A stretch of 64,000 nucleotides of DNA from an uncultured delta proteobacterium. Its GTDB lineage: Bacteria > Desulfobacterota > WTBG01 > JAGOGO01. Location of the stretch: assembly GCA_963727835.1 (NCBI GenBank), contig CAVSIB010000026.1, positions 13,051 through 77,050 of the forward strand. Direction: 5' to 3'. Shown piece after piece: positions 47,438 to 63,130 of the stretch. The position numbers were made by a program, and so were the translations under genes. Each line of letters starts with the position of its first letter. The stretch's first letter is position 1. The notes beneath the pieces were generated by a model. It made no database searches, was not told the DNA's origin, and was given only the letters and a program-made list of their open reading frames with translations.

Positions 47438-47578
47438 GTCAGTGCCTCCTTTGTTAGTACGCTAATAACAATCGCCCATAGATTATAGCGTTACGCCACT
47501 ATTTTTTAATAAAATTGCCACCAGCTTCAAGACGCAACCATCTTTTGCTGCACCACTGAACGCCAGTCACCTTTGGTG

Positions 47579-49564: not shown

Positions 49565-49651
49565 ACCTTTCCTATCTGTGCATTCTTACGCTGGTTTAAA
49601 AATATTAACTTAAGGTTTCGCCCCCCCTTTTTTTATTAGGTTGAACGTGTA

Positions 49652-50239
49652 TCAACCGTTAAACACTATCCCTTCGAATAATGACTCATTGCTTGTTTCG
49701 ATGGCTTTTTTCATTGCAAAAACATAGTCGGGTCTCACTTCATTTTGCCAACGCGGATAACCTCCTCGCCAGACATATTGAATTAATTCATGAAACGAGT
49801 CCCAGCTAAAGGAGTAATCACCAATGGAAACCTTCTTTCTGTCTTCATTGATAATCACAGCAATATCAATCGCCGTGGCAAAATGTTGGATTAGATTTTC
49901 TACGGTTTTCCGATTCTTAGCTCCGTCGGGTTTCTGTTTGAAGCCCTCCGGCAGGGCAGGGAAGGGAAACAGTTTATAGACTTCCCCGATGAACCCTTGA
50001 AAGATAACTCCGTGAATAGCGCCCATCAGATTTCCGATATCGGAAGGGCGTTCAATATAATAAACGTGCCAGATATTCCCTTTGGAATCGGCTTCCTTTC
50101 TCTCAGATAGGTTCGAAATGTACTTGCAGAATTCACTCGCAAAGAAAAAGTAATGCTCTAGGAGAAGCATGTCACTTTCTATGTTGAAAAAGCCAAACGC
50201 AATCGGGCCATGACTGAGCGATTGAAATTCAAGGGGCAT
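49652..50239 (-). CDS. Hypothetical protein (195 aa) embedded in the beta-oxidation operon
   Basis: Co-oriented, 21 nt after the upstream gene. No motif I can name. Confidence 0.5.
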   Translation of the reverse strand: MPLEFQSLSHGPIAFGFFNIESDMLLLEHYFFFASEFCKYISNLSERKEADSKGNIWHVYYIERPSDIGNLMGAIHGVIFQGFIGEVYKLFPFPALPEGFKQKPDGAKNRKTVENLIQHFATAIDIAVIINEDRKKVSIGDYSFSWDSFHELIQYVWRGGYPRWQNEVRPDYVFAMKKAIETSNESLFEGIVFNG

Positions 50240-50260
50240 TTTGGGGCCTTTTATGAGCGG

Positions 50261-52285
50261 TTACTTTTTATAAGTTGGCGTCCTTCGTTCCTGAAACGCG
50301 GATATCCCTTCTTTTGCTGCTTCAGTGCAGGCTATGGCGCCAAAGCCTCGATAGCCGATTTCCAGAGCTTCCTGAAAGGTGTTGGCAGCAGCGCCATCTT
50401 TAATGGTTTTCTCGACAATAGAAACTGCTTCGCAACTCAGGGCAAGCTTTCCGGCCATGGGATTTTCGACCGTCTGAATCGCCTCGAGAGCAACTTTGCC
50501 ATCGGGAATCCTCGGTATTTTTCCCTGGAGGTTGTTAACTTCCTCAATCGCAGCTTTAACCGTGCTGAAATAGTCATCAGCAACTTTTTTTACCATCCCG
50601 AAGTTTTGAGCTTCCTGAACTTTTACGGATTTTCCTAATCGTAACATTTGATGAAAAACCGTGGCTGCCTGAGGCCATTTTCGGTAAGGGACAACACACC
50701 CTCCGATGCCCGGAAGGATTCCCAGCGTAATCTCGGGGAACTGGAAAGAAGCATTTTTGCTTGCCACGATGCTATGACAACGAATAGCAATTTCCAATCC
50801 TCCTCCTAAAGCCAGGCCGTTTACCGCTGCGACAACCGGTTTTTGCATGGTGTCAATGTATACCAATAGATTAGAGCAATCCCGAGCAAACGCGGCAGAG
50901 GCACCAGCGTTTCCGAGCATCTCGGGAAATTTGCCGATTTCCGCACCCGCGCAAAACGCTCGGTCACCATATCCGGTGATAACGAATCCTTTGATGGCAT
51001 TATTTGCGACATCTTCTTGAATGGCCGACAAGATTTCGTTATTCACCTCATCGTTAAGGGCATTCATAAACTGAGGCCTTCTGATGGTGATGATTTTTAC
51101 TCCCTCTATGACATCGATCAGAATGTGACGTCGAAAATTCTGGTACGTAGTAAACGGTTTTATGGGACCAGGAAACCCCGGTCGGTCTTTTTGAAAGGTT
51201 TCGATAATGCGTTTGGTTTCGGATTCACCCAGATCTCTCATGACATCCAAAGGACCTTTTTTAAATCCCAGCGCCATTTGGCACCCCAAATTGAGGTCCC
51301 CGGGAGTGCCGATACCGCGGTTCAGAATATCGAACGACTGGGATAAGAGAATGCCTAAAAGCCGATCCCTTATTTTCTTGCTGGTAGCTTGAGGAACCTC
51401 CAGAGGATCCCCCATGTTGATGGTTTTCCAGCGATCAACTGAGTTGAATACTTTTGCCGGGCGGTAATGCTCACCTTCCTCCATTTGGAGGGTATTGGTT
51501 TCAGCGATGATCGGGTTTCCATTGGCCATATTAAGGACAAAAAACGGTCCGGCGAAAACAAACTCTTCTGCAACTTTATCAATTTGGCTGGCGGTAGCAT
51601 CATTCAAAAGGTAGGCGGCATCATTACACCAGTTGTCAAAGATTCTGTCTAAGATAAAACAGATCACGTTTTCCGAGACGATAGGTGTTTTTCCTGTTAT
51701 ACAGAACATCCAGCAGAGGTAATCAACGATTTTTTGATCAGCTTTTTCCCAGGTTATAACTTCTACTGCCGGATTACGCCAGGCAGGGGCAAAAAAATGG
51801 GTGACCGTTGCTCTTTCAGGATTTTTCATTTCCGAAAAGATTCGATCCGCGGGGATTGAGCTGGTGTTAGAGGTTATGATTGTTTCCGGGGACACCATTT
51901 CTTCCACCATTTTAAATATTTTTTTCTTCAGAGAAATACTTTCGGTGGCGGCTTCGATAACCAGATCACAATTTTTTATGGTAGCATAGTCTTGGGTATA
52001 GGAAATATTTTCCAGAATTTTTTTCCCTTTATCTTCCGTCAGCTTCTTTTTCTTAATCGCTTTATCCACGTATCCCTGATAGCGCTTCTCCGCGCTTTTC
52101 AGAGGTTCTGCAACCACATCAATCAGAACAAGCTCCATATCCACAAGAGCGCTTTTCAAATAGTAGCCAATATCCGGTCCGATAGTACCCGCCCCAATGA
52201 GCGCTACTTTTTTAGGAAGAGGGCGGTCGGGTTTGAAGAGTAGGGGATTGGTGAAATTGGGGTAAAGCCTTGATCGATAGTCCAT
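50261..52285 (-). CDS. Bifunctional 3-hydroxyacyl-CoA dehydrogenase (N-terminal) / enoyl-CoA hydratase (C-terminal)
   Basis: KVALIGAGTIGPDIG Rossmann fold. The C-terminal crotonase fold has FVITGYGDRAFCAGAEIG and AAVNGLALGGGLEIA. Confidence 0.88.
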   Translation of the reverse strand: MDYRSRLYPNFTNPLLFKPDRPLPKKVALIGAGTIGPDIGYYLKSALVDMELVLIDVVAEPLKSAEKRYQGYVDKAIKKKKLTEDKGKKILENISYTQDYATIKNCDLVIEAATESISLKKKIFKMVEEMVSPETIITSNTSSIPADRIFSEMKNPERATVTHFFAPAWRNPAVEVITWEKADQKIVDYLCWMFCITGKTPIVSENVICFILDRIFDNWCNDAAYLLNDATASQIDKVAEEFVFAGPFFVLNMANGNPIIAETNTLQMEEGEHYRPAKVFNSVDRWKTINMGDPLEVPQATSKKIRDRLLGILLSQSFDILNRGIGTPGDLNLGCQMALGFKKGPLDVMRDLGESETKRIIETFQKDRPGFPGPIKPFTTYQNFRRHILIDVIEGVKIITIRRPQFMNALNDEVNNEILSAIQEDVANNAIKGFVITGYGDRAFCAGAEIGKFPEMLGNAGASAAFARDCSNLLVYIDTMQKPVVAAVNGLALGGGLEIAIRCHSIVASKNASFQFPEITLGILPGIGGCVVPYRKWPQAATVFHQMLRLGKSVKVQEAQNFGMVKKVADDYFSTVKAAIEEVNNLQGKIPRIPDGKVALEAIQTVENPMAGKLALSCEAVSIVEKTIKDGAAANTFQEALEIGYRGFGAIACTEAAKEGISAFQERRTPTYKK

Positions 52286-52465
52286 AGTAGCCTCCTTTTG
52301 TTACCTTCGATAAAGCAGAGAAAAAAGTTTTTTGGTTATCATCCTCCGTGGTTGCAAAAAGAACCCTGCAGATCGCAACAGTTTTTATTCTTGCTCTAAC
52401 CTGTTAAATGAGCTCCTGAACAGCTCCGGATCGATCGGGTGGATGAGAAAAGACTCACCCTTATT

Positions 52466-53443
52466 TTACGCTCTGAGAGCCTTTGCTTTTTCAGTTAACG
52501 CGGGCAATACTTTAAAGAGATCATCGACGATTCCGTACTGAGCAACATTGAAGATAGGGGCTTTAGGGTCTTTATTGACCGCAATGATGGTGCCGGAGTT
52601 TTTCATTCCCGCCACATGCTGAAACGCGCCGCTTATTCCCAACGCGATATATACCTTGGGCTTTACGGTTTTTCCGGAGGTGCCGACCTGCCGTTCTTTC
52701 GGGAGCCACTTTTTGTCAACCACCGGGCGAGAACAGGACAATGTTGCTCCTAAGGCCTTGGCCAAAGCTTCGGCTAAAGGAATGTTTTCCGCATCCCCGA
52801 TACCCCGTCCCACGGAAACCAGGATGTCGGCCCGGGTGATATCAACCTCACCGGCAGCGGCTTCAAGAAACTCAACAAACTTCCGCGCCTGTATCTCCGT
52901 GGTTAAAGGAGAAGGAACGGACATGACTTCGCCGTCGTAAGCGGCATCGATCTCAGCCGGGAAAGAACCAGGACGAAGCGTGACCAGACAGTTCTTTGCC
53001 CCCCGAAATCCAATGCGGGCATTAACTTTGTCAGAATACATTTTGCGGGTTGCTTCGATGCCGTCATTTCCAACTTCCACGTCAACGCAGTCGGTAGCTA
53101 AAGGCCATTTAAGGGCGGCTGAAAGCCGGGGAGCGAACTCCATCCCGTACGATGTGTGGCCCATGAGTAACAGCGAGGGAGCTTTTTCAGTTGCAAGGGC
53201 GCTCAGCACTGCTTGATAGGTGAGCGCATTGTACTGTTCTAACTGCTTATCCTCAATAGTCAGTATCTTGGAAGCGTATTTCTTTACCTTGTCAACATAC
53301 GCCTTGGCATCCGATGCTAAGATGACGGCACTGAGCTCTTGATTTAATTTTTCAGCCACCATTCGGCCTTTGCCTAACATTTCATAGCTTATTTCACGGA
53401 TTTCTCCGCGTCGATGTTCGATTAACACCCAGATTCCGCTCAT
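52466..53443 (-). CDS. etfA: Electron transfer flavoprotein subunit alpha
   Basis: VSVGRGIG, VGTSGKTVKPKVYIALGISGAFQHVAGM, IIAVNKDPKAPIF. Confidence 0.92.
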   Translation of the reverse strand: MSGIWVLIEHRRGEIREISYEMLGKGRMVAEKLNQELSAVILASDAKAYVDKVKKYASKILTIEDKQLEQYNALTYQAVLSALATEKAPSLLLMGHTSYGMEFAPRLSAALKWPLATDCVDVEVGNDGIEATRKMYSDKVNARIGFRGAKNCLVTLRPGSFPAEIDAAYDGEVMSVPSPLTTEIQARKFVEFLEAAAGEVDITRADILVSVGRGIGDAENIPLAEALAKALGATLSCSRPVVDKKWLPKERQVGTSGKTVKPKVYIALGISGAFQHVAGMKNSGTIIAVNKDPKAPIFNVAQYGIVDDLFKVLPALTEKAKALRA

Positions 53444-53444
53444 G

Positions 53445-54236
53445 TTATAGCCCTCCTTTTTCTTTCAAGATCTCGATTACTTTTACCGAAACATCATCAG
53501 GGCTTCCTTTAAAAATTTCTGCTACCTTGCCTGTTGGTGGCAGAAACAATTCTTTCAACTCGGTTAAAGAGCCTGCTGGCCCACAATCCTCTGGCGCAAG
53601 GGAAATATCATTGCGGCTGAGTTCTCGAAGTCCTTTGCTTTTTGCCTTGCGAATCCCCATAATGGATACATAGCGTGGTTCATTGATACCGGTTTGGATG
53701 GCAAGGACAGCGGGTAACTCAAGGGAAACCACTTCTTCCATGCCGCCCTCCAGTTCCCGATGAACCTGGGCTTTTTTGTCCTGGATGGTGAGCTTGGTTA
53801 CCATGGTGGCATGAGGAACGTGAAAAAGTTCAGCGAGAATCGGGCCGACCTGGCCGTAGCCGTCGTCTCCGGCCTGAACTCCGGTAAGCAGAAGGTCAAA
53901 GGGCTTATCTTTTAAAGCAGCATGTAAAGCCCGGGCAGTAGCATAAGGATCACCGCCGAAAAGTGCCGGATCGCTTAAATGCAATGCCTCATCTGCTCCC
54001 ATGGCCAAAGACCGTCTCAAGGTGTCCTGGGATTCCTGAGGTCCGAGGGTAACCACGGTAATCGTTCCGCCGCCCTGGCTTTCTTTAATGCGGACCGCTT
54101 CTTCAACCGCATAGTTATCCCATTCATTGATGTCGTATACCAAATCTTCAGTGCGAATACTTTTGCCCGACTTATCAATGGCAATTTCTGCTTCTGAGGT
54201 CTCAGGTACTCGCTTTACACAGACTATTATGTTCAT
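53445..54236 (-). CDS. etfB: Electron transfer flavoprotein subunit beta
   Basis: MNIIVCVKRVPE, NEWDNYAVEEA, LLLTGVQAGDDGYGQVG. Confidence 0.92.
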   Translation of the reverse strand: MNIIVCVKRVPETSEAEIAIDKSGKSIRTEDLVYDINEWDNYAVEEAVRIKESQGGGTITVVTLGPQESQDTLRRSLAMGADEALHLSDPALFGGDPYATARALHAALKDKPFDLLLTGVQAGDDGYGQVGPILAELFHVPHATMVTKLTIQDKKAQVHRELEGGMEEVVSLELPAVLAIQTGINEPRYVSIMGIRKAKSKGLRELSRNDISLAPEDCGPAGSLTELKELFLPPTGKVAEIFKGSPDDVSVKVIEILKEKGGL

Positions 54237-54328
54237 AAGGACCTCCTGACTTTAAACATTCCCGTAATTTTTTTGGTTATCCGTTCTTGATTTTATCAAC
54301 ACCCAATGGTTGTGAAATTTTGTTTTGT

Positions 54329-54358
54329 ATGTTGCCGCCCGTGAACGGGCGGCAACAT
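54329..54358. other. Perfect 13-bp GC-rich hairpin between thiolase and etfB
   Basis: ATGTTGCCGCCCG-TGAA-CGGGCGGCAACAT. No T-run follows in the minus (transcribed) orientation. Confidence 0.5.
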
Positions 54359-54435
54359 GATTGAGGAGGAGAGATAGAAAAAACAAGCGAAACAACTATT
54401 TAATTTTCAACAAAAAAACATTCAAGGAAAGGTGC

Positions 54436-55635
54436 TCAACCCGTGACCTTCACGATCATCGCTGCGCCAGTATCTCCTGCGGCGCACCCGGCAAACATTC
54501 CATAACCACCACCCCGTATAACCAATTCTTCAATCAACTCAATAATCAGACGGCCGGCCGTAGGTCCCTGGGGATGTCCAAAAATAATCGAGCTCCCGTA
54601 GTTGTTCATTGCCATAACATCAATTCCGAATTCCCGGGCGAAATAGAGGTCATTGATTACGAACGGGTTATGGGATTTATGTGCTTTTATGTCTTTTATG
54701 GAAAGGCCGGCTTTTTCTAAAGCCATTCTTGCTGCCGGGACCGGGGCCATTCCCATATGCGCCTTAGGTGCGCGGGCATACCCATAAGAAATGATTTGAG
54801 CTTCGACTTTTGGATCAGCGCTGAGCTCGCGGGCTTTTTCTTTTGTGGTTACAATGATCCCGCAGTTTCCGTCAGCCGGATGCGTCTGGGAACCGAAAGT
54901 GAGCACTCCGCCAGGGATTACCGGTTTAAGGCTCGCCAGCCCCTCTTTGGTGGTGGGCGTTATCCCTTCATCAGTCTCCAGGACGCCGACTTCCTTTTTG
55001 CCTTTTTTAAATTCTATAGGGAACATGTAGCGCTTCTGAAATGCTCGATCTTTGGCTAAAGCATCCATATACTGCTCATATCGTTTCAGCGTTACTGCAT
55101 CACAGTCTTCCTTGGTAACTCCCCCTTTCGTCAGTTTGGCAACGTTTTCTGCCGTCTCTATCATTGGTTTCTGTCCCCAGGGATCAAAATTGAAGTTGTC
55201 AAGCACCCAGTTTTCGACCACGACCTGGCCTCCCTGCCCCATGGGATTTGGCCAGATCGTATGGGGGCCGTTGGAGACCCTGTCGGTCATAAGACAACAG
55301 ACGTTAGAATACAACCCACAGTCAACGCCCAAAGCCGCTTGATTGACCACTGTTACCGATGTGGTACAAGCCTGAGAAATAAGCAATGCCGAGATGTCGG
55401 GATTACCCATGAGGGCGGCTGCCCACTGGGCTGAGTAAAAGGTGTGGCGCTGGGTTACGGTTTTTCCGAGAAAGAGGTAATCAAACATTTTGGGGTCAAA
55501 CTTTTTTGCCGCAAGCCATTTTTTTGCGGTTGCTGCAACCAGCTCAACCGGATGTTCACATTGAAGGCTTCCCTGCCAGCGAGAAAAGGGGGAACTGTAA
55601 TAACCGCGATAGGGGATAAATACTTTTGAGTACAT
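54436..55635 (-). CDS. Thiolase-family acetyl-CoA C-acyltransferase (divergent)
   Basis: 399 aa with SQACTTS (active-site Cys region), NNYGSSIIFGHPQGPTAGR, GCAAGDTGAAMIV. Confidence 0.82.
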   Translation of the reverse strand: MYSKVFIPYRGYYSSPFSRWQGSLQCEHPVELVAATAKKWLAAKKFDPKMFDYLFLGKTVTQRHTFYSAQWAAALMGNPDISALLISQACTTSVTVVNQAALGVDCGLYSNVCCLMTDRVSNGPHTIWPNPMGQGGQVVVENWVLDNFNFDPWGQKPMIETAENVAKLTKGGVTKEDCDAVTLKRYEQYMDALAKDRAFQKRYMFPIEFKKGKKEVGVLETDEGITPTTKEGLASLKPVIPGGVLTFGSQTHPADGNCGIIVTTKEKARELSADPKVEAQIISYGYARAPKAHMGMAPVPAARMALEKAGLSIKDIKAHKSHNPFVINDLYFAREFGIDVMAMNNYGSSIIFGHPQGPTAGRLIIELIEELVIRGGGYGMFAGCAAGDTGAAMIVKVTG

Positions 55636-55864: not shown

Positions 55865-57172
55865 TTATGATCCCATGTCAAGATGCCCGCTGTTTATCCC
55901 CAGGCACCGCCCCACACCCATCGGGGTAAAGTTCCTCAGCGGCGGGAGGTTATATTTTTTCCAGGTCTCATACCAGGCAATATCAACCTCAATGTAGTAA
56001 TCCAAAGGGATCACAGGCTGATCATACTGACCGAGCACTGAGTTGGGTTCGATAACCCAGCTTGAACTTCGCGGTGTTACCCCATGAGACATCAGGTGTT
56101 CCCAGCACTCTTTCATTGACTTTACCGCGTCCTGCCATTTTTCAAATCCCCAGGGGCGGGCCATTTCACACCCGGAAACAAAAGTGGGACAGACATTGCC
56201 TTCCCCAAAGATTTCCACCGAATCACAAACGCGTTTTACCCACTCATCCCGACCAACAAACTTTTCTTTTCCCGGACAGAAAATTTTAAACTTCTCCTTG
56301 TCCCACACCTCGATATTCGCATGATGAGAGTCAACGCCGGCATCTTTAAGAATTTTGCACTCTTCTTTGGTCAGTGCGGTAGTTTGAAGATGGATCGCCC
56401 ACCGGTAGCCGATTTTTTCCCGAATAGCTTTGATGTACTGGGCGTAGAAGTGGACATTGTCTTTACGCTTAAGGCTTTTGGTAACGGCTCCGCCGGTTAA
56501 CAGAATACTATGATTAATAGATTCCCGTTCTTTATTGAAAATAGTGTCCAGTACGGTTACCACATCCTCAACGCCCTTATGCATCATAAATGGTCGTCCG
56601 GTCTTTGATTGCTTGCGGGCATTGGTGTTAATATCACAGAAAATACATTCTTCTTTTGTTCCCCAGTACTGGCAACTCCTCAAAATCGTACAGAAGGTGA
56701 GATATCCCCAAAACACAGCAGCTGCGATATCCGAGTAGGGAGTTCCATTTGGTAAACGGTGACGGTAGTAAGGGGGTTGGGGTCTCAACTCGAGATCGCC
56801 GATAAAATTGTCTTCCCAGCGAAGCTGTAACTTCCCATCAATTAGATCTATTTTATAGGGAGTTTTTTCCGGCTTCTCGAGACAGGTTTTGTTGTTTGAG
56901 GGTTTGAGGTTGTAAGGTCCTCCTTTGAATTTGAATTCTTCGGGGGCCCGTAAAAACTCCTGCCGCTTCATTTCCTCAACATCGGTTTGATCATAGGAGA
57001 AAAGGTAGTAAGATTTAGTAGTAAACTTAGCTGATTCTTCTAAAGCAGCATCGGTGAAATGAATCCCCAGCCGAAGAATATCCTCCTTGATGATAACCTC
57101 TTTCGGCACATCGGGATATCGTTCGAAATACTTTTCTAAATCATATTTTATATAAGGCATTTTACCGGGCAT
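55865..57172 (-). CDS. Uncharacterised radical-SAM-like protein with non-canonical Cys spacing (Cx5Cx8Cx2C)
   Basis: FCTILRSCQYWGTKEECIFCD is encoded at 56636-56692, followed by SILLTGG. GGAGG lies 9 nt before ATG 57172. I cannot assign a family from memory. Confidence 0.45.
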   Translation of the reverse strand: MPGKMPYIKYDLEKYFERYPDVPKEVIIKEDILRLGIHFTDAALEESAKFTTKSYYLFSYDQTDVEEMKRQEFLRAPEEFKFKGGPYNLKPSNNKTCLEKPEKTPYKIDLIDGKLQLRWEDNFIGDLELRPQPPYYRHRLPNGTPYSDIAAAVFWGYLTFCTILRSCQYWGTKEECIFCDINTNARKQSKTGRPFMMHKGVEDVVTVLDTIFNKERESINHSILLTGGAVTKSLKRKDNVHFYAQYIKAIREKIGYRWAIHLQTTALTKEECKILKDAGVDSHHANIEVWDKEKFKIFCPGKEKFVGRDEWVKRVCDSVEIFGEGNVCPTFVSGCEMARPWGFEKWQDAVKSMKECWEHLMSHGVTPRSSSWVIEPNSVLGQYDQPVIPLDYYIEVDIAWYETWKKYNLPPLRNFTPMGVGRCLGINSGHLDMGS

Positions 57173-57213
57173 GACGACCAACCTCCTTCACTGTTTAAGG
57201 GTGTCTAATTTAG

Positions 57214-57882
57214 TTACGTTCTCTCAAGGTTTTTGAAAATTCTTTCTGGAACCTTAGAACGGTTTTTGTAGATATGAAAAAGGTGTTCAGCGGTCTCTTT
57301 ACCGCCTTCCACTTCTACCACATAAACAAAATCCATCTTTTCATCAAGCATTACTTCGGTCATTGAGACACAATGGGCGCAATAAACCGGACAGTCTTTG
57401 CTTTGACCGGTCATGACCTGTGGTTTTTTTATCCTGAGCAGGTCAAGGGGTGGTCGGTATTTTCCGTCCCGAAGCTGTCTGCCGCCTGAACCACAGGGTT
57501 TGAGAAAGAACGTTACTTTTTCATCATCTTCCTTTAATTCAAACTCGCTGAAATGCGCCCTCCAGATTGCGGCAGTTGCTTCCACGCACGCTTTAAACCC
57601 TTTCTTAAAAAGTTCTCCCAAGGGCATCATATAATTTCTTACTGTTTTAAGCATGATTTCGTGTAACTTTTTATCTCCAAACTGCCTCCCGATTTCCGAA
57701 AGGATGTCGGTGACCCAATCGCGGTAAAGGTCGTGAGCAACCATAAATTCATCATAAATAGACTGCACCAGCTTCTCAGCCCCTTCCTTATCCCCTCTCC
57801 GAATAGCTTCTTTGGCCAAGGTTAATCGGGACATCGCTAAGCCGGCCAATTCCTTATCAGTAAATACTCGTTGAGTTTCCAT
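57214..57882 (-). CDS. Uncharacterised 222-aa Cys-motif protein (CGSGG ... CPVYCAHC)
   Basis: SD AGGGAGG upstream, helical N-half, C130 and C164-x3-C168-x2-C171. It is 33 nt upstream of the radical-SAM-like gene. Confidence 0.5.
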   Translation of the reverse strand: METQRVFTDKELAGLAMSRLTLAKEAIRRGDKEGAEKLVQSIYDEFMVAHDLYRDWVTDILSEIGRQFGDKKLHEIMLKTVRNYMMPLGELFKKGFKACVEATAAIWRAHFSEFELKEDDEKVTFFLKPCGSGGRQLRDGKYRPPLDLLRIKKPQVMTGQSKDCPVYCAHCVSMTEVMLDEKMDFVYVVEVEGGKETAEHLFHIYKNRSKVPERIFKNLERT

Positions 57883-58071
57883 AGCGCCTCCCTATAAATA
57901 CTATACATAAGTTAATAAAAATTGCGGGGAGTTGAACAGCACTGCAAAGGAAACCTTTTATAAGGCTGCCTGGCCGCAATACACTACTTCCTGTGCTTTC
58001 ATTAAAAAAATTAGTAACGTCACTTCAGAAATTGTTTAGTATTATTGCTCTTGCCTCCTTCTTTGAAACCA

Positions 58072-58100
58072 ATTATAGGTGCCTAAAAAATCCCTGTCAA
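58072..58100 (-). promoter_or_regulatory. Consensus sigma70 promoter for the minus-strand operon
   Basis: On the minus strand, TTGACA (58100-58095), 17 nt spacer, TATAAT (58077-58072). This implies a leader of about 180 nt before ATG 57882. Confidence 0.65.
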
Positions 58101-58106
58101 CAATTT

Positions 58107-58122
58107 TTAATCAATTAATTAA
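58107..58122. promoter_or_regulatory. Operator-like motif copy 1 (TTAATCAATTAATTAA)
   Basis: 15/16 identical to 58437-58452. TTAAT/ATTAA dyad arms. It lies 7 nt upstream of the -35 of the minus-strand promoter. Confidence 0.4.
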
Positions 58123-58407: not shown

Positions 58408-58452
58408 TTGACATCGTTAAAAAAGTAGTGTTTTAATTAATCAACTAATTAA
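58408..58452 (+). promoter_or_regulatory. tetR/hyuAB promoter candidate with operator-like motif copy 2
   Basis: TTGACA at 58408-58413, weak -10 TTTAAT about 58432-58437, and the motif TTAATCAACTAATTAA at 58437-58452. Confidence 0.4.
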
Positions 58453-58478: not shown

Positions 58479-59102
58479 ATGCAGTATGAATTGGCAAAGT
58501 ACGAAACAAAAAAACATAAGATTCTCAATGCAGCTTTCAAACAAATTTATGAGCAAGGGATAGCCGGGACAACCATGCGTTCCATCGCGAAAGAAGCGAA
58601 GGTCAACCAGGCCCTCCTGCACTATTATTTTAAAGATAAAGAAAATCTTCTTGCTGAGTTTATCCAGGTTCTTTTTAACCGATTTATTTATGACATTGAG
58701 AAAAGGTACAAGGAGTCAGATCCCCCCGGAAAAAAATTAGAGGCCTTCTTCGCCGCTGGAAAGGACTTTGTGGAAAAGCAGCGGGAACTGTTTGTGGTGA
58801 TGATTGATGTTTGGGCGTACTGCTTTAGAAGTAAAAAACTACAAAAGGATTATGCTGGGCTTAACCGACGACTTACCGGAGTTATGAAAGACATTGTGGC
58901 TGCGGGAAAGGAAAAAGAGGTTTTTAATAATGTCCATGAAGACACGTTGGCGATTTTATTTGTCTGCTTTGTCGTGGGGATCGGGTGTCTTTGGCACATG
59001 GATAACCGTTCCTTTAATTTGAGTGATGAATTCGACATCATGACCAGAAATCTTCGCCAACTTATTTTACACAATGATACGGGCAATAAACCATTGCTCT
59101 GA
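58479..59102 (+). CDS. TetR/AcrR family transcriptional regulator
   Basis: ILNAAFKQIYEQGIAGTTMRSIAKEAKVNQALLHYYFKDKENLL (TetR HTH). Confidence 0.88.
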   Translation: MQYELAKYETKKHKILNAAFKQIYEQGIAGTTMRSIAKEAKVNQALLHYYFKDKENLLAEFIQVLFNRFIYDIEKRYKESDPPGKKLEAFFAAGKDFVEKQRELFVVMIDVWAYCFRSKKLQKDYAGLNRRLTGVMKDIVAAGKEKEVFNNVHEDTLAILFVCFVVGIGCLWHMDNRSFNLSDEFDIMTRNLRQLILHNDTGNKPLL

Positions 59103-59168: not shown

Positions 59169-61298
59169 ATGAGGTTTAAAATTGGTATTGACGTTGGAGG
59201 AACATTTACAGATTTTTTATTAGTAGATGAGGAGGGAAAACACGAAGTTTTTAAAGTGCTGACAACGCCTCCCGACCCCAGTATCGGAGTGAGGCACGGC
59301 ATCGAAGAGATGGCGAAGAGCAAGAGTATGACGATTGAAGAGTTCTTCGGCTGTGTGGATGCGGTTATCCACGGAACTACCATTACCACGAATGCAGTTT
59401 TAACGAACACCGGAGCAAAGACTGGTTTTATCACCACCAAAGGATTCCGCGATGCGTTGAATATGCGCCGGGGGTTGAAAGATCGCCAGTACGATTCCCG
59501 GTACAATCCTCCCAAGGTATTGGTCAAACGGCGACACGTTTACACGGTGGAAGAACGGGTTGACTGTGAGGGCAATGAAGTTACCCCCCTCAATGAAGCG
59601 GATGTGAAGGTTGCCATTCAGAAAATGAAGGAGGCAGGGGTCGAAGCGGTGGGGGTGAGCACCTTGTTTTCCTTTTATAATCCCGCTCACGAGCAAAGGA
59701 TTGGGGAAATGTTGCGGGAGGCTTTTCCTGATATATTTGTTTCTCTTTCCACCGAAATTCTCCCCCAGATCAGACTCTACGAACGGAACAGCACGGTGGC
59801 GTTAAACGCATATGTAGGACCGCCTCTGAAGCGATATCTGGAGGCAGTTTTAGCCCGTCTAAAAAAAGACAACTTTAAAGGCACGTTGCTTATCATGCAG
59901 TGTAACGGGGGCGTCATGAGCCCTGAGGTGGCCATGCGGTTTGCCGGAAACACGCTCTTGTCTGGTCCAGCCGGAGGGCCGGTGGCGGGTCTCTGGTTCG
60001 GAAGCATGCATGGGCTCGACAACGTGATCACGGTTGACATGGGCGGCACGAGCTTTGACGCCTGTCTAATTCATAACGGAAAACCCGGGGTAACAACCGA
60101 GGGCGATATCGCAGGCTGGCGGAACGCTTTGCCGAGCCTCGACATTGTGACCATTGGCGCTGGTGGCGGCAGCATTGGCTGGATTGACCCCAGTGGCCTG
60201 CTCCAGATGGGCCCCCAGAGCGCAGGCTCCGCACCCGGCCCCGCCTGCTACAGCATGGGTGGAACGGAACCCACGTCCACCGACGCTGACCTTCTCTTGG
60301 GTTACTTAGATGCCGAATATTTCCATGGCGGGGATATGAAACTCGACGTCAAGGCAGCAGAAAAAGCCATTAAAGAGAAGGTCGCTGATAAATTAGGCAT
60401 CGGGATAATCGAGGCGGCCGAAGGTATGTATCAGATTGTTAACAGCAATATGGCTGCCGGAGTAAGCATCGTTTCCGTGGCCCGGGGCTATGATCCGCGG
60501 GAGTTCGCCCTGATCGTGGCCGGAGGCGCTGGCCCCATTCACGCCGGCATGATTGCCAAAGAACTAAAGATTCCTTTGATGATGGTGCCGCGGGGGTCTT
60601 CGGTCTTTTGCGCCGCAGGAATGCTGATGACTGATCTAAAACATGATTATGTGCGCACTTACACGGTGAACACCAATACAATCGATCTCTCGCGGTTAAA
60701 TACTATCTGCAAAGAGATGCGCACTACCGGCCGGGAAACCTTGAAGAAAGAAGGCATTCCGGATGACCGAATCGCTTATCACTTTACCGCCGACCTGCGG
60801 TATCTGGCACAGTTCAACGAAGTGGAAGTCTCCTTGCCCATGTCGGACTCCGGCGAAGTACGGGTGGCGGACATTCCTTATATGCTCCAGGCGTTTCACC
60901 AGAAGCATGATGAGCTCTATGGTTACTCGCTGTCCCAGGCGGAAACTGAGCTGATCAATGTGAGATTGAGCACCATCGGAAAAACTGATAAACCGGTGTT
61001 TAAAGAGTCGCCCTTCCGGGGAAAGGATGCCTCGCATGCGCTGAAGAAAACACGAAAGGCCCGTTTCGACAAAAAATGGATTGATACACCTGTTTATGAT
61101 GGACTGAAAATGGGCAACGGCAACGTGGTGTTCGGGCCAGCTATTATCGAGGAGCCAACCACCACGGTGATTGTTACCCCTGATTATGATATCATCATGG
61201 ACAGCTACGATAATTATATCATGCATCCCAAAGGCATCAACCCCCACGACTTAATCAAGAAGTTAAAGACAAATAATGGGTTGGTTAACAGGGAGTAA
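59169..61298 (+). CDS. hyuA: Hydantoinase/oxoprolinase family protein, A-type (HyuA-like) subunit
   Basis: 709 aa with IGIDVGGTFTDFLL, HGTTITTNAVL, DMGGTSFD, GAGGGSIGW. SD AAAGGAGG upstream. Confidence 0.9.
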   Translation: MRFKIGIDVGGTFTDFLLVDEEGKHEVFKVLTTPPDPSIGVRHGIEEMAKSKSMTIEEFFGCVDAVIHGTTITTNAVLTNTGAKTGFITTKGFRDALNMRRGLKDRQYDSRYNPPKVLVKRRHVYTVEERVDCEGNEVTPLNEADVKVAIQKMKEAGVEAVGVSTLFSFYNPAHEQRIGEMLREAFPDIFVSLSTEILPQIRLYERNSTVALNAYVGPPLKRYLEAVLARLKKDNFKGTLLIMQCNGGVMSPEVAMRFAGNTLLSGPAGGPVAGLWFGSMHGLDNVITVDMGGTSFDACLIHNGKPGVTTEGDIAGWRNALPSLDIVTIGAGGGSIGWIDPSGLLQMGPQSAGSAPGPACYSMGGTEPTSTDADLLLGYLDAEYFHGGDMKLDVKAAEKAIKEKVADKLGIGIIEAAEGMYQIVNSNMAAGVSIVSVARGYDPREFALIVAGGAGPIHAGMIAKELKIPLMMVPRGSSVFCAAGMLMTDLKHDYVRTYTVNTNTIDLSRLNTICKEMRTTGRETLKKEGIPDDRIAYHFTADLRYLAQFNEVEVSLPMSDSGEVRVADIPYMLQAFHQKHDELYGYSLSQAETELINVRLSTIGKTDKPVFKESPFRGKDASHALKKTRKARFDKKWIDTPVYDGLKMGNGNVVFGPAIIEEPTTTVIVTPDYDIIMDSYDNYIMHPKGINPHDLIKKLKTNNGLVNRE

Positions 61299-61380: not shown

Positions 61381-63130
61381 ATGAAAAAACTAGACCCCAT
61401 TCTGGTTTCGGTAATTGCCAATCGTTATGACGCGATCTGTCAAGAGATTGGGGAGACCATGTACCGAACCTCTCGGTCTCCGATTTTTAGCGAGGCAAGG
61501 GACTTTGTGACCGCTATCTTTGATCGCCAGGGCCGGATGCTGGCTCAGAAGCCTTATATTGCAGTGCTGGCTGGGGCAACGCCGTATGCGATGAAAAAAA
61601 TTATTGAAATGTTTAAAGATGACCTTCATGATGGCGATGTCATTCTCGATAACGACCCCTACTGGGGCGGAAACAATCATATGCCGGACTTTACTGTTGC
61701 CAAGCCGGTTTTCAGCAACGGCGAGCTGGTATTTTGGACGGTCGCAAAAGGTCACCATGCTGACACTGGCGGCGCCGGCTGTTGCGGGTATCAACCTGAG
61801 GCTCGCACCATCTGGCAGGAAGGCTTGAGGATTCCCCCCATCAAAATTTATGATAAAGGTATCCAACGCAAAGACGTCTGGAACATGATCCTTGCTAACG
61901 TGATGATGCGCTTTCTGGTTGAGGGAGACCTTCATTGTCAGGTCGGCGCCGCCACGGTAGGAGAAAGAAAACTGAAAGAATATTTAGAAAAGTATGGCCG
62001 GGAGACTTTGGAGGCGGCGGCGAATGAAATTTTAGATGGAACGGAAAGACAGATGCGGCAAGAAATCGCGAAAATTCCCGATGGTGATTACGAGGCAGAG
62101 CGTTATAACGACCACGATGGTATCGACCGCGACCGGCTGGTCAAAACCAAACTCACGATACGCGTGCGAGGAGAAAATATCACCTTTGACTTCACCGGGT
62201 CTGATCCCCAGGTTAAGGGTGGCATCAACAATACGGAGGCCAACACCTTTTCCAGCGTTTGTCTGGCCCTGTTCAATACCGTTGACCCGGATATCCGCAA
62301 AAATGAAGGTGCGCTCCGGCCGGTTACACTGATCGCCCCCCAGGGAACGGTCGTGAACTGCCTCGAGCCTGCCCCCTGCACCTCCTGCACCATCTGTGGA
62401 ACAGCGGCGGTGGTGGAAAGCGTTTGGCTGGCCCTTTCCAAGGCCGTACCCCAGCTTATCCAGGCAGCATGGGCGAGATGGTCTGCCCCAGCCACCATGG
62501 GCTTCAATCCCCGAACGGGGAGAATGTTTGGCGACATCCACTTTCTCTGTAAGGGCGGGGCTGGAGCAACGCTAGGATTCGACGGCTGGGATCATATGGG
62601 AGTCATCTCCTGTTCTGGCGGTTTGCGTGCTCCCGATCCGGAGCTGCATGAGTTGGTGGATCCTTACTTTCTGCTTCGCTATGAATACCTGCGAGACAGT
62701 GCTGGCCCGGGAAAATGGCGGGGTGGCATGGGGACAGCGTACATCTTTCGATCAGAAGCTGATAATATCCTGACCGACAATTTTGGTGACGGGCTTTTAC
62801 CGGAAACCGCTCCCTACGGGTTAGCGGGCGGAAAAGGTGCCAAACCGAACAAGCTGGTGGTGCGAAGGACGAGTGGGATCGGTGGAAGACCCCGAGGTCC
62901 ACAAGTATGTGACCCTCAATAAGGGTGATGTTTACGAAGTTTGGGAGACCGGAGGAGGGGGGTATGGAGATCCTTTTGAACGATCAGTGGAAAAGGTTCA
63001 GGAGGATGTTATCGATGAACTAGTGTCCATAGAATCAGCAAAGAATGATTATGGTGTGGTGATTGATTCCAAAACCTTAGCCGTTGATACGGAAAAAACG
63101 ACAAAGCTCCGTAAGGCCCACAAAAAATGA
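61381..63130 (+). pseudogene. hyuB: Hydantoinase B/oxoprolinase family (HyuB-like) subunit, one frameshift about 62870-62885
   Basis: ORF 61381..62922 (DPILVSVIANRYDAICQEIGETMYRTSRSPIFSEARDF...). The conserved end GSVEDPEVHKYVTLNKGDVYEVWETGGGGYGDPFER...NDYGVV is in ORF 62837..63130 in another frame. Confidence 0.88.

What the first reader, a model, noticed from the sequence alone, without database searches (positions are those of the whole stretch)
55865..57882. Uncharacterised gene pair heading the catabolic operon: radical-SAM-like protein with Cx5Cx8Cx2C plus a 222-aa partner bearing CxxxCxxC
The two ORFs are tightly linked (33-nt gap), both have strong SDs, and they are driven by a perfect TTGACA-17-TATAAT promoter.

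The 435-aa protein has FCTILRSCQYWGTKEECIFCD. Its first-to-third Cys spacing is Cx14Cx2C, a spacing known from Burkholderia QueE. An ILLTGG stretch reminiscent of the SAM-binding GGE motif follows. The canonical CxxxCxxC is absent.

The small upstream protein does carry a canonical-looking CPVYCAHC, plus CGSGG, in a non-TIM-barrel-sized protein.

I cannot place either in a named family. Their position between tetR/hyuAB and the beta-oxidation/ETF genes suggests an Fe-S or radical activation step for an unknown substrate. This is the best candidate in the window for an undescribed enzyme system.
Basis: partly seen in the sequence, partly recalled or inferred. Interest (0 to 1): 0.7.

Follow-up and report, generated by a model that had tools for sequence, protein, structure and literature searches.

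The report
Variant radical SAM enzyme, loosely paired
The larger gene encodes a real but uncharacterised radical-SAM-type enzyme with an unusual Cx8Cx2C iron-sulfur motif from an already catalogued family, and the small upstream gene belongs to a separate unnamed metal-site family that sits beside it only in this lineage, so the two are not a conserved enzyme system.

Summary
Both ORFs, their Shine-Dalgarno sites and a perfect TTGACA-17-TATAAT promoter are real. The promoter hexamers are conserved in relatives.

The 435-aa protein passes NCBIfam NF045502 "variant_rSAM". Across 89 homologs only C167, C176 and C179 are invariant, giving Cx8CxΦC. A confident AlphaFold model matches the radical SAM barrels of ThiH, HydE, PylB and BioB.

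The 222-aa protein belongs to a large unnamed family of about 1,057 clusters. Its "CPVYCAHC" is not a family motif. H50, H110, C130, C168 and H170 are invariant, and a further Cys ligand appears to have moved. Its fold resembles V4R/H-NOX/Bet3 only weakly.

The pair is not syntenic. None of 87 loci anchored on the radical-SAM-like gene has the small gene. Only 4 of 88 loci anchored on the small gene have the radical-SAM-like gene, all from the window's own lineage. In this clade the radical-SAM-like gene tracks lactamase-type HyuA/HyuB. The small family usually precedes B12 acyl-CoA mutases, CoA-transferases or other acyl-CoA genes.

Most likely this is a TetR-controlled catabolic regulon in which a radical SAM enzyme acts on a small acid or acyl-CoA intermediate. 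The substrate is unknown.

The parts
58072..58100 (-). Sigma-70-type promoter TTGACA-17-TATAAT of the operon that starts with the small gene
   Evidence: 12 of 12 match. Both hexamers are invariant in L093 (96% identity) and L090/L091 (81%).
58107..58122 (.). Palindrome TTAATTAATTGATTAA abutting the -35; candidate TetR operator
   Evidence: The motif TTAATTARTTGATTAA occurs at only two sites in the 64-kb window, both in this intergenic region; 0.23 expected by chance. The element upstream of the -35 is conserved in relatives. Operator function is inferred.
58437..58452 (.). Second copy of the palindrome (TTAATTAGTTGATTAA), next to the tetR start
   Evidence: conserved in L090/L091. Operator function is inferred.
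57214..57882 (-). 222-aa protein of an unnamed family: an N-terminal helical part similar to the B12-binding_2 cap, plus an α/β domain with an invariant His/Cys site
   Evidence: Pfam PF02607 scores 25.9 bits (GA 23) on residues 24-73, and 61 of 85 family members hit it. Invariant residues are H50, H110, C130, C168 and H170. AF2 pLDDT is 94.3. Fold matches to V4R/Bet3/H-NOX are weak.
57370..57393 (-). Codons for C164-P-V-Y-C168-A-H170-C171; only PVYC168-A-H170 is a family motif
   Evidence: C164 and C171 are confined to the window's clade, which in turn lacks the Cys near position 195 found in 72 of 85 members.
55865..57172 (-). 435-aa variant radical SAM protein: an N-terminal domain of about 160 aa with no structural match, plus a radical SAM barrel
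   Evidence: NF045502 scores 165 bits against a cutoff of 125, and 89 of 89 homologs pass it. AF2 pLDDT is 94.7. Foldseek matches ThiH, HydE, LipA, PylB, BioB and HydG at probability 1.00.
56636..56674 (-). Codons for C167-x8-C176-x-F178-C179, the predicted ligands of the SAM-binding [4Fe-4S] cluster
   Evidence: The three Cys are present in 89 of 89 sequences, the spacing is 8 and 2 residues in 87 of 89, and position 178 is aromatic in 89 of 89. Cluster binding is inferred.
58479..59102 (+). Divergent TetR-family regulator
   Evidence: PF00440. The same divergent arrangement is found in L090-L092.
59169..61298 (+). HyuA-type subunit of an ATP-dependent lactamase/hydantoinase-like enzyme
   Evidence: Pfam Hydantoinase_A. 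Closest to caprolactamase 6yra (535 bits) and N-methylhydantoinase (486 bits); acetone carboxylase scores 280 bits. The NCBIfam CapA model scores 700 bits, below its 1000-bit equivalog cutoff.
61381..63130 (+). HyuB-type subunit, interrupted by a frameshift near 62876
   Evidence: tblastn with an intact homolog switches from frame 1 to frame 2 at 62876-62877. The NCBIfam CapB-like model scores 373 bits.
46286..55635 (-). Rest of the operon: thiolase (54436-55635), ETF β and α (53445-54236, 52466-53443), HADH/ECH (50261-52285), a 195-aa ORF with no family (49652-50239), an Fe-S/CCG oxidoreductase (47579-49564) and an acyl-CoA dehydrogenase (46286-47437)
   Evidence: Pfam and NCBIfam. The same gene order follows the pair in L090 and L093.

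Best explanation
The two genes are separate modules that one Desulfobacterota-like lineage has placed at the head of a TetR-controlled catabolic regulon. They are not a dedicated two-protein enzyme.

The 435-aa protein is a genuine radical SAM enzyme of the catalogued but uncharacterised 'variant_rSAM' family. C167, C176 and C179 (Cx8CxΦC) are predicted to hold a [4Fe-4S] cluster on a BioB/HydE/ThiH/PylB-like barrel. Reduced cluster would cleave SAM to a 5'-deoxyadenosyl radical, which would abstract a hydrogen atom from a small-molecule substrate. No auxiliary-cluster cysteines are conserved, so sulfur insertion is unlikely.

Genomic context points to a carboxylic acid, amino acid or acyl-CoA intermediate. 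In this clade that intermediate would be linked to an ATP-dependent lactamase/hydantoinase-type HyuAB, so a ring-opened cyclic amide is one plausible substrate. The radical step would make it accessible to the thiolase, HADH/ECH, acyl-CoA dehydrogenase and ETF machinery encoded downstream.

The 222-aa protein is a probably dimeric accessory protein that binds a metal or cofactor through His50, His110, Cys130, Cys168, His170 and a movable extra Cys. About 20 polar residues are invariant across very different operons, which argues for a constant ligand such as a metal, a cofactor or a shared moiety like CoA, rather than a pathway-specific substrate.

Shown: family membership, motif conservation, fold, synteny statistics and promoter/operator conservation. 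Inferred: cluster binding, SAM cleavage, substrate class, the role of the small protein and TetR control.
For: Large protein:
- NF045502 scores 165 bits against a cutoff of 125, and 89 of 89 homologs pass.
- C167, C176 and C179 are present in 89 of 89; F or Y at 178 in 89 of 89; G228, E288, K302, G334 and E336 in 89 of 89.
- The TGG and HxNIE segments align to the β2 and ribose-motif regions of biotin synthase.
- The AF2 model has pLDDT 94.7. Its top fold matches are all radical SAM enzymes that act on small molecules (ThiH, HydE, LipA, PylB, BioB, HydG; E from 5e-6 to 4e-4, probability 1.00).

Context:
- In the clade at 75% identity or above, the gene is always next to HyuA/HyuB. The arrangement is colinear in L001, L081 and L082/083, and divergent in the window and L090-092.
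- This holds although HyuA and HyuB are only 52-71% and 43-76% identical, while the radical-SAM-like protein is 75-88% identical.
- Distant members sit among CoA ligases, acyl-CoA dehydrogenases, thiolase, ECH/HADH, UbiD and 2-oxoacid:ferredoxin oxidoreductase.
- The window's HyuA is of the lactamase/hydantoinase type.
- An operator-like palindrome occurs only twice in the window, flanking the divergent promoters. The promoter is conserved.

Small protein:
- The invariant His/Cys set is documented.
- The Cys near position 195 is present in 72 of 85 members. It is replaced by C164 plus C171 in exactly the 10 window-clade members that lack it.
- 33 of 148 representatives are tandem duplications.
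- The family heads operons with MCM-like mutase plus B12 subunit, CoA-transferase III, ECH, SDR, TauD or HyuAB.

No synteny of the pair: 0 of 87 and 4 of 88 loci.
Against: - The Pfam Radical_SAM model scores below its gathering cutoff (22.5 against 29.5 bits).
- No Glu follows the GG, so the canonical GGE motif is incomplete.
- The model coordinates could not be inspected, so the geometry of the three Cys is unverified.
- The HyuAB link is seen only in a narrow clade, and hyuB carries a frameshift in this window.
- No CoA ligase or CoA-transferase was found in the window with the probes used.
- The family also occurs in aerobic actinomycetes with unrelated neighbours, so there may be no single substrate class.
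- For the small protein, the fold matches are weak (E 0.01-0.05, TM 0.40-0.44) and a profile comparison with a V4R-containing protein found nothing. Its role is the least certain part.
Confidence: 0.55

Rival explanations
1. One reading: the two proteins form a dedicated, undescribed two-component Fe-S/radical enzyme. The small subunit contributes a CxxxCxxC-ligated cluster that activates or feeds electrons to the Cx14Cx2C-type large subunit.
For: The two genes are tightly linked and co-transcribed from one promoter. The same pair is found in L090-L093. In the window's clade the small protein has four Cys (C130, C164, C168, C171), which could ligate a cluster.
Against: None of 87 loci anchored on the radical-SAM-like gene carries a small-family gene within ±7-10 kb. 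That includes relatives at 75-86% identity (L001, L081, L082). 84 of 88 loci anchored on the small gene lack the radical-SAM-like gene. C164 and C171 are not family residues, and C161 of the large protein is present in only 22 of 89.
Confidence: 0.07
2. The large protein has a radical-SAM-like barrel but does not perform radical SAM chemistry. The three Cys bind a cluster or metal used for non-radical catalysis, for example as a Lewis acid or for structure.
For: The Cys spacing is non-canonical. The Pfam PF04055 score is below threshold. The GGE glutamate is missing. The family is widespread in aerobic actinomycetes. Weaker fold matches also include DHODH-type flavin barrels.
Against: The aromatic residue of the CxΦC motif is kept in 89 of 89 sequences, and the GG and NxE ribose-type motifs are also kept. 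The 19 best fold matches are all radical SAM enzymes. A curated NCBIfam model names the family radical SAM. Other CXnCX2C variants are accepted members of the superfamily (PMC9477430).
Confidence: 0.12
3. The radical SAM protein is a B12-independent carbon-skeleton mutase or isomerase for an acyl-CoA or acid. The small protein is a shared helper of 5'-deoxyadenosyl-radical enzymes. In this operon the radical-SAM-like gene occupies the slot that an AdoCbl-dependent MCM-like mutase occupies downstream of the small gene in other genomes.
For: The small gene directly precedes an MCM-like large subunit plus B12 subunit in L085, L099, L100 and L125. It lies near them in L101, L102 and L113, and MeaB is present in L085 and L125. 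P0226 is a fusion of the small protein to a PF02310 B12-binding domain. The small family carries a B12-binding_2-like N-terminus in 61 of 85 members. PylB, a radical SAM carbon-skeleton mutase, is among the best fold matches. The radical-SAM-like family sits in acyl-CoA clusters.
Against: The small gene equally often precedes CoA-transferases, ECH, SDR, TauD, FIST-like proteins or HyuAB, none of which uses a radical. No radical-SAM-like locus outside the window's lineage has the small gene. There is no biochemical evidence, and fold similarity does not specify a reaction type.
Confidence: 0.12
4. The small protein is a stand-alone ligand sensor or anti-repressor with a V4R/H-NOX-like fold. It modulates TetR or other regulators of the operons it heads and has no enzymatic link to the radical SAM protein.
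For: Its fold resembles the phenol-sensor domains of DmpR, MopR and PoxR, and also H-NOX. It is typically the first gene of catabolic operons that have nearby TetR or GntR regulators.
Against: About 20 polar residues are invariant across operons for obviously different substrates, which is unusual for an inducer-specific sensor. The protein has no DNA-binding or output domain. The V4R link is unsupported at sequence and profile level.
Confidence: 0.12

Closest known systems
NCBIfam NF045502 'variant_rSAM' (product name: radical SAM protein)
   Same: The window protein and all 89 sampled homologs pass the curated cutoff over nearly the full model (residues 25-406). This is the family it belongs to.
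   Different: The model is a 'domain'-type naming model with no assigned function. Nothing in the searched literature characterises it.
TIGR04043 MSMEG_0568-family radical SAM protein. From memory, this may be the radical SAM gene of the Nit1C nitrilase cluster described in PMC1199592; that link was not verified here.
   Same: It is the next-best sequence relative. All 89 homologs hit it (best E 4e-22), and the window protein scores 46 bits over residues 102-336. It is also uncharacterised and related to biotin synthase.
   Different: The score is far below the 303.7-bit cutoff. The window shows none of the Nit1C-type neighbours (nitrilase, GNAT, AIR-synthase-like) among the operon genes annotated.
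The BioB/HydE/ThiH/HydG/PylB/LipA structural subgroup of radical SAM enzymes
   Same: These are the best fold matches for the C-terminal ~250 residues. The β2 GG and β4 'HxNIE' segments align to biotin synthase. All act on small molecules.
   Different: The first Cys-Cys spacing is 8 residues instead of 3. No conserved auxiliary-cluster cysteines are present. An extra conserved N-terminal domain of about 160 residues has no structural match. Sequence identity is 10-15%.
QueE from Burkholderia multivorans, with its CX14CX2C insertion
   Same: Both have an enlarged loop between the first and second cluster cysteines.
   Different: The Cys that would give a 14-residue spacing (C161) is present in only 22 of 89 homologs. 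No QueE model or structure appears among the hits.
The V4R/Bet3/H-NOX/D27 fold group, which binds small molecules and cofactors
   Same: The small protein's model gives consistent though weak matches to DmpR, MopR and PoxR sensor domains, to Bet3/TRAPP and to H-NOX. Members of this fold group hold heme, a covalently attached lipid or a Cys-ligated [4Fe-4S] cluster in the same cavity (PMC13254051). A zinc site in the phenol-sensor domains is recalled from memory and was not checked here.
   Different: There is no sequence-level signal: 0 of 85 members hit Pfam V4R, and hhalign gives probability 1.2%. TM-scores are only 0.40-0.44. The ligand set (3 His plus 2-4 Cys) differs.
Pfam PF02607 B12-binding_2, the helical cap of corrinoid proteins
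   Same: Residues 24-73 pass the gathering score (25.9 against 23 bits), and 61 of 85 family members hit it at E up to 1. The family is often next to, and once fused to, B12-binding subunits.
   Different: Only 49 of the 74 profile positions are matched. No PF02310 Rossmann B12-binding domain follows in the window protein. No cobalamin enzyme was detected in the window.
Caprolactamase CapAB, N-methylhydantoinase and 5-oxoprolinase (the ATP-dependent HyuAB hydrolases)
   Same: The neighbouring HyuA and HyuB are closest to this hydrolytic branch (6yra at 535 bits; the CapA model at 700 bits).
   Different: The scores are below the equivalog cutoffs of 1000 bits. The substrate is unknown. No such enzyme is known, in the literature searched, to work with a radical SAM protein.

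Membership tests
Radical SAM superfamily | Three conserved Cys in the loop after β1 that ligate the SAM-binding [4Fe-4S] cluster (canonical CX3CX2C; CXnCX2C variants are accepted) | tested here: met
   C167, C176 and C179 are present in 89 of 89 sequences, with spacing 8 and 2 residues in 87 of 89. They follow strand 158-164 of the model. The spacing is non-canonical; CX8CX2C variants are listed in PMC9477430.
Radical SAM superfamily | An aromatic residue between the second and third Cys (CxΦC) | tested here: met
   Position 178 is F in 82 and Y in 7 of 89 sequences.
Radical SAM superfamily | A partial or full (β/α) TIM-barrel fold | tested here: met
   The AF2 model has pLDDT 94.7. Foldseek gives probability 1.00 to ThiH, HydE, LipA, PylB, BioB and HydG over about 250 columns.
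Radical SAM superfamily | SAM-binding motifs: GGE after β2, a ribose motif after β4, and GxIxGxxE | tested here: inconclusive
   T/S226-G227-G228 is conserved (G228 in 89 of 89), but Ser, Thr or Ala follows instead of Glu. N286-x-E288 (88 and 89 of 89) aligns to the BioB 'HNIET' segment. V332-x-G334-x-E336 is invariant. The equivalence of these motifs to the SAM-binding motifs is inferred.
Radical SAM superfamily | Pfam PF04055 gathering score | tested here: not met
   22.5 bits against a gathering score of 29.5. Some homologs carry precomputed weak PF04055 hits.
Radical SAM superfamily | Reductive cleavage of SAM to the 5'-deoxyadenosyl radical | not testable with these tools
   This needs anaerobic biochemistry.
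NCBIfam NF045502 variant_rSAM | Whole-protein score above the curated cutoff | tested here: met
   165.2 bits against 125, covering model positions 4-357 of 357. 89 of 89 homologs match.
TIGR04043 MSMEG_0568 radical SAM family | Score above the 303.7-bit cutoff | tested here: not met
   46.5 bits. The annotated neighbours are β-oxidation and HyuAB genes.
QueE-type CX14CX2C variant | A conserved first Cys 14 residues before the CX2C pair | tested here: not met
   C161 is present in 22 of 89 sequences; Leu or Ile is common at that position.
Conserved two-gene system (small protein plus radical SAM protein) | Co-occurrence of the two genes across genomes | tested here: not met
   HMM searches found the small gene in 0 of 87 loci anchored on the radical-SAM-like gene. 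They found the radical-SAM-like gene in 4 of 88 loci anchored on the small gene, all from the window's lineage.
CxxxCxxC Fe-S motif in the small protein | All three Cys conserved among homologs | tested here: not met
   C164 is present in 13 of 85 members, with Phe or Tyr in most others. C171 is Cys in about half and Glu in 39. Only C168 is invariant.
Pfam PF02607 B12-binding_2 (small protein) | Score above the gathering cutoff, and the usual pairing with a PF02310 B12-binding domain | tested here: inconclusive
   25.9 bits against 23 on residues 24-73, and 61 of 85 members hit the model. However, the window protein has no PF02310 domain; only the fusion P0226 has one.
V4R domain (PF02830) / H-NOX-like sensors (small protein) | A sequence-profile match and a shared fold | tested here: inconclusive
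   No Pfam V4R hit in 85 members, and hhalign probability is 1.2% against a V4R-containing kinase. Only weak fold matches were found (E 0.01-0.05, TMq 0.40-0.44).
Caprolactamase CapA/CapB (the neighbouring HyuAB) | NCBIfam equivalog cutoffs of 1000 bits | tested here: not met
   700.6 bits for HyuA and 373.2 bits for HyuB. They are related enzymes of the same branch, not equivalogs.

The most novel reading that the evidence does not exclude
The variant radical SAM protein is a B12-independent mutase or isomerase that rearranges an acid or acyl-CoA, here one derived from a HyuAB-opened cyclic amide, so that it can enter β-oxidation. The small His/Cys protein is a previously unrecognised, widely distributed helper of 5'-deoxyadenosyl-radical enzymes. 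It would serve AdoCbl-dependent acyl-CoA mutases in most genomes and a radical SAM enzyme in this lineage.
Probability: 0.1. Interest if true: 0.8.

Novelty: new member of a known kind. Interest (0 to 1): 0.35.

Why it matters
If the best explanation holds, this locus gives an uncharacterised radical SAM family a concrete, regulated catabolic context. The family occurs in at least 550 species and has a fixed Cx8CxΦC motif. The context comprises a TetR regulator, a lactamase-type HyuAB and a β-oxidation/ETF module, and it could be used to find the substrate.

The analysis also brings to light a large protein family that is absent from Pfam (about 1,057 clusters at 50% identity). It has an invariant His/Cys site and a compensatory shift of one Cys ligand, and it recurs at the head of acyl-CoA operons and next to B12 mutases.

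Neither point overturns current understanding. Uncharacterised radical SAM subfamilies are common, and the 'two-component system' that made the finding attractive does not hold up.

Tried and rejected
- **Riboswitch or known RNA in the ~190-nt leader.** There was no Rfam hit at E up to 1. The distal ~110 nt of the leader is absent in L090/L091. Rejected.
- **Sequence search of the PDB.** Single sequences and family profiles gave nothing significant for either protein. Biotin synthase was only marginal at E 0.2-0.4.
- **Synteny by tblastn and ORF clustering.** tblastn found no small partner. ORF clustering of the high-GC loci was too noisy to use. I replaced both with HMM searches and contig look-ups with called genes.
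- **Fusion partners of the small family as functional clues.** The 20 long members scanned have no Pfam domains. Long members are tandem or partial duplications of the same module. Only P0226 carries a B12-binding domain.
- **V4R homology for the small protein.** There was no Pfam V4R hit in 85 members, and the hhalign probability was 1.2%. I kept it only as a weak fold resemblance.
- **Acetone-carboxylase-type ketone carboxylation as the role of HyuAB.** This is disfavoured because HyuA is closer to caprolactamase and N-methylhydantoinase.
- **Usual partners of the small protein elsewhere in the window.** No MCM-like mutase, B12 subunit, MeaB, CoA-transferase III or CoA ligase was found.
- **Literature.** Searches for NF045502, TIGR04043 and MSMEG_0568, for a radical SAM enzyme with a hydantoinase, and for a B12-independent acyl-CoA mutase found nothing relevant.
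- **Not possible here.** I could not inspect model coordinates to check Cys geometry, and no multimer prediction was available.


Full report
**1. What is in the sequence**

Both ORFs lie on the minus strand. The 222-aa ORF is at 57214-57882 and the larger one at 55865-57172 (435 aa from the ATG; a TTG at 57181 would give 438 aa). GGGAGG lies 6 nt before the first ATG, and AAGGAGG lies 9 nt before the second.

A 12-of-12 TTGACA-17-TATAAT promoter lies at 58100-58072, about 190 nt upstream of the first ATG. Both hexamers are invariant in relatives at 96% and 81% identity (L093, L090/L091), so the promoter is more than a chance match. The leader contains no Rfam family, and its distal ~110 nt is missing in L090/L091.

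**2. The large protein**

It passes the curated NCBIfam model NF045502 "variant_rSAM" (165 bits, cutoff 125, nearly full length). It also has weak similarity to TIGR04043 (the MSMEG_0568 family), BioB and ThiH. The Pfam Radical_SAM score is below its gathering cutoff (22.5 against 29.5 bits). Homologs are numerous: at least 550 of the species genomes scanned encode one, including Streptomyces, Catenulispora, Acidobacteriota, Binatia, Planctomycetota and Desulfobacterota. All are named only "radical SAM protein" or "hypothetical".

In an 89-sequence alignment spanning 38-90% identity, the conservation is as follows.
- C167, C176 and C179 are present in 89 of 89 sequences, with spacing of 8 and 2 residues in 87 of 89.
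- Position 178 is aromatic in 89 of 89, which corresponds to the CxΦC feature of radical SAM enzymes.
- G228, E288, W290, K302, G334 and E336 are invariant.

The conserved motif is therefore Cx8CxΦC. The QueE-like Cx14Cx2C reading does not hold. The TGG segment and the HxNIE segment align to the β2 and β4 regions of biotin synthase.

An AlphaFold2 model has mean pLDDT 94.7. Its C-terminal ~250 residues match ThiH, HydE, LipA, PylB, BioB and HydG at probability 1.00. The conserved N-terminal ~160 residues have no structural match. No further Cys is conserved, so an auxiliary cluster of the BioB or LipA type is unlikely. RadicalSAM.org lists uncharacterised megaclusters with CX8CX2C motifs (PMC9477430). 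I could not test whether this family is one of them.

**3. The small protein**

Its only database signal is Pfam B12-binding_2 on residues 24-73 (25.9 bits against 23). This signal recurs in 61 of 85 family members. The family is large: 1,057 representative clusters at E up to 1e-3.

H50, H110, C130, C168 and H170 are invariant, together with about 15 other polar residues. C164 and C171 of the window's CPVYCAHC are not family residues. 72 of 85 members carry another Cys near position 195. The 10 members that lack it are exactly the window's clade, which has C164 and C171 instead. This looks like a ligand swap that preserves a metal or cluster site. That interpretation is an inference.

The AF2 model (pLDDT 94.3) has a long helical N-terminal part and a small α/β domain. 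Fold matches are weak but consistent (E 0.01-0.05, TMq 0.40-0.44). They go to the V4R-type phenol-sensor domains of DmpR, MopR and PoxR, to Bet3/TRAPP and to H-NOX. Members of that fold group hold heme, a covalently attached lipid or a Cys-ligated [4Fe-4S] cluster in one cavity (PMC13254051). Sequence-level support for V4R is absent. Longer family members are tandem or partial duplications without other domains, which suggests that single-copy proteins dimerise. One member, P0226, is fused to a PF02310 B12-binding domain.

**4. Synteny**

I built HMMs for both families and searched all fetched loci.
- None of the 87 loci anchored on the radical-SAM-like gene has a small-family gene within ±7-10 kb. 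These are 80 species genomes plus 7 contigs.
- Only 4 of the 88 loci anchored on the small gene have the radical-SAM-like gene (L090-L093). In all four, both proteins are at least about 80% identical to the window's.
- Relatives of the radical-SAM-like protein at 75-86% identity (L001, L081, L082/083) lack the small gene. They show the order radical-SAM-like gene, HyuA, HyuB, then a CoA ligase and an acyl-CoA dehydrogenase.

Within the clade at 75% identity or above, the radical-SAM-like gene is always next to HyuA/HyuB, either colinear or divergent through tetR. Across these loci the radical-SAM-like protein is 75-88% identical, while HyuA is 52-71% and HyuB is 43-76% identical. The adjacency has therefore survived strong divergence or replacement of HyuAB.

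More distant family members lie among acyl-CoA dehydrogenases (L084), a thiolase and a DHODH-like flavoenzyme (L176), TctC proteins with a CoA ligase, acyl-CoA dehydrogenases and ECH (L177/178), UbiD with a CoA ligase and a TRAP transporter (L175), or a 2-oxoacid:ferredoxin oxidoreductase with HADH/ECH (L174). In actinomycetes the neighbours are a 2-hydroxyacid dehydrogenase and a split-barrel flavoprotein, or unrelated genes.

The small family, by contrast, heads many different operons:
- MCM-like mutase plus B12 subunit, sometimes with MeaB (L085, L099, L100, L125; nearby in L101, L102 and L113);
- family III CoA-transferase (L086, L124, L130, L137, L148);
- HyuA/HyuB without a radical-SAM-like gene (L088/089);
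- ECH, SDR, TauD, FIST-like and TetR genes.

**5. Local context and regulation**

Downstream of the pair, on the same strand, come a thiolase, ETF β and α, a bifunctional HADH/ECH, a 195-aa ORF with no family, a membrane-type Fe-S/CCG oxidoreductase and an acyl-CoA dehydrogenase. Rho follows. Divergently transcribed are tetR, hyuA and hyuB.

HyuA is closest to caprolactamase (6yra, 535 bits) and N-methylhydantoinase (486 bits), and further from acetone carboxylase (280 bits). It therefore belongs to the hydrolytic lactamase/hydantoinase branch. hyuB carries a frameshift near 62876.

The palindrome TTAATTARTTGATTAA occurs at only two sites in the 64-kb window: 58107-58122, abutting the -35, and 58437-58452, beside tetR. 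Chance expectation is 0.23. Both are conserved in relatives. They are probably TetR operators that couple the two divergent arms, but this is inferred.

**6. Most likely mechanism**

The large protein binds a [4Fe-4S] cluster through C167, C176 and C179. It cleaves SAM and uses the 5'-deoxyadenosyl radical to abstract a hydrogen atom from a small acid, amino acid or acyl-CoA intermediate. In this clade the intermediate is tied to the product or substrate of a lactamase-type HyuAB. The radical step would allow entry into the β-oxidation/ETF module. The small protein is a dimeric accessory that binds a metal or cofactor and recognises a constant ligand.

What is shown: family membership, motif conservation, fold, synteny statistics and conservation of the promoter and palindromes. 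What is inferred: cluster binding, SAM cleavage, substrate class, TetR control and the small protein's role. My confidence in the composite explanation is about 0.55. The radical SAM identity alone is about 0.8, and the conclusion that the pair is not a dedicated system is about 0.8.

**7. Rival explanations**

- A radical-SAM-like barrel without radical chemistry (0.12) is disfavoured by the retained CxΦC, GG and NxE features and by the fold neighbours.
- A B12-independent mutase with the small protein as a shared helper of adenosyl-radical enzymes (0.12) is attractive. In its favour are the small gene's position upstream of MCM-like mutases, the B12-domain fusion and the precedent of PylB. 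It is unproven, and the small protein's many non-radical neighbours weaken it.
- The small protein as a stand-alone sensor or anti-repressor (0.12) fits the fold but not the invariance of its polar residues across unrelated operons.

**8. Comparison with known families, and novelty**

The large protein is a member of NF045502. It is not a member of TIGR04043 (46 against 304 bits) and is not a QueE-type variant. It works like the small-molecule radical SAM enzymes of the BioB/HydE/ThiH/PylB subgroup, but it has an 8-residue first spacer, no auxiliary cluster and an extra N-terminal domain. The small protein belongs to no named family. Its resemblances to the B12-binding_2 cap and to the V4R/H-NOX fold are partial. 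No paper in the searched library characterises either family.

I classify the finding as a new member of a known kind, with an unknown substrate. The "undescribed two-protein system" is not supported.

**9. Limits of this analysis**

- Flanks were 7-10 kb at most, and many metagenomic contigs were short.
- Model coordinates could not be inspected.
- No multimer prediction was available.

Noticed in passing
window 62837-62922 (frame switch at about 62876): hyuB is split into a 513-aa ORF and a 97-aa ORF in different frames. An intact homolog aligns across the junction with a frame 1 to frame 2 switch. This is either a sequencing or assembly error or a pseudogenised hyuB.
   Followed up: partly
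window 58107-58122 and 58437-58452: Two copies of the palindrome TTAATTARTTGATTAA are the only matches in the 64-kb window (0.23 expected by chance). One abuts the -35 of the operon promoter and one lies next to tetR. They are likely TetR operators and are conserved in L090/L091.
   Followed up: partly
window 57883-58071 compared with L090 and L091: The 5' leader is about 190 nt in the window and L093, but about 110 nt shorter in relatives at 81% identity. The extra segment has no Rfam match and no obvious ORF.
   Followed up: partly
window 49652-50239 (-): A 195-aa ORF between the HADH/ECH gene and the Fe-S oxidoreductase has no Pfam or NCBIfam hit. A 197-aa ORF occupies the same operon position in L090 (15361-15954).
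   Followed up: no
window 47579-49564 (-): The 661-aa Fe-S/CCG protein has an N-terminal QmoC-like region (residues 15-175) in addition to its DsrK/TfrB/HdrD-like part. Together with ETF αβ and the acyl-CoA dehydrogenase, this could be a membrane-linked route for electrons from acyl-CoA oxidation.
   Followed up: no
L090 287-2920 and L092 287-2920: In the closest loci with the same architecture, hyuB is followed by a sensor histidine kinase containing V4R, GAF and PAS domains and by a sigma-54 activator. L082 also has a PAS kinase and a sigma-54 activator upstream of the radical-SAM-like gene. These would add a second regulatory layer that was not seen in the part of the window examined.
   Followed up: no
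proteins P0244, P0247, P0248 and others: 33 of the 148 top representatives of the small-protein family are tandem duplications of the whole ~225-aa module. Others carry an extra copy of only the N-terminal helical part. None of the 20 scanned has a Pfam domain. The family appears to be absent from Pfam.
   Followed up: partly
L175 5490-11523: A distant homolog of the radical-SAM-like gene (about 45% identity) is flanked by two UbiD-family (de)carboxylase genes, a CoA ligase and a TRAP transporter. This is a different catabolic setting, which suggests the family serves several pathways.
   Followed up: no
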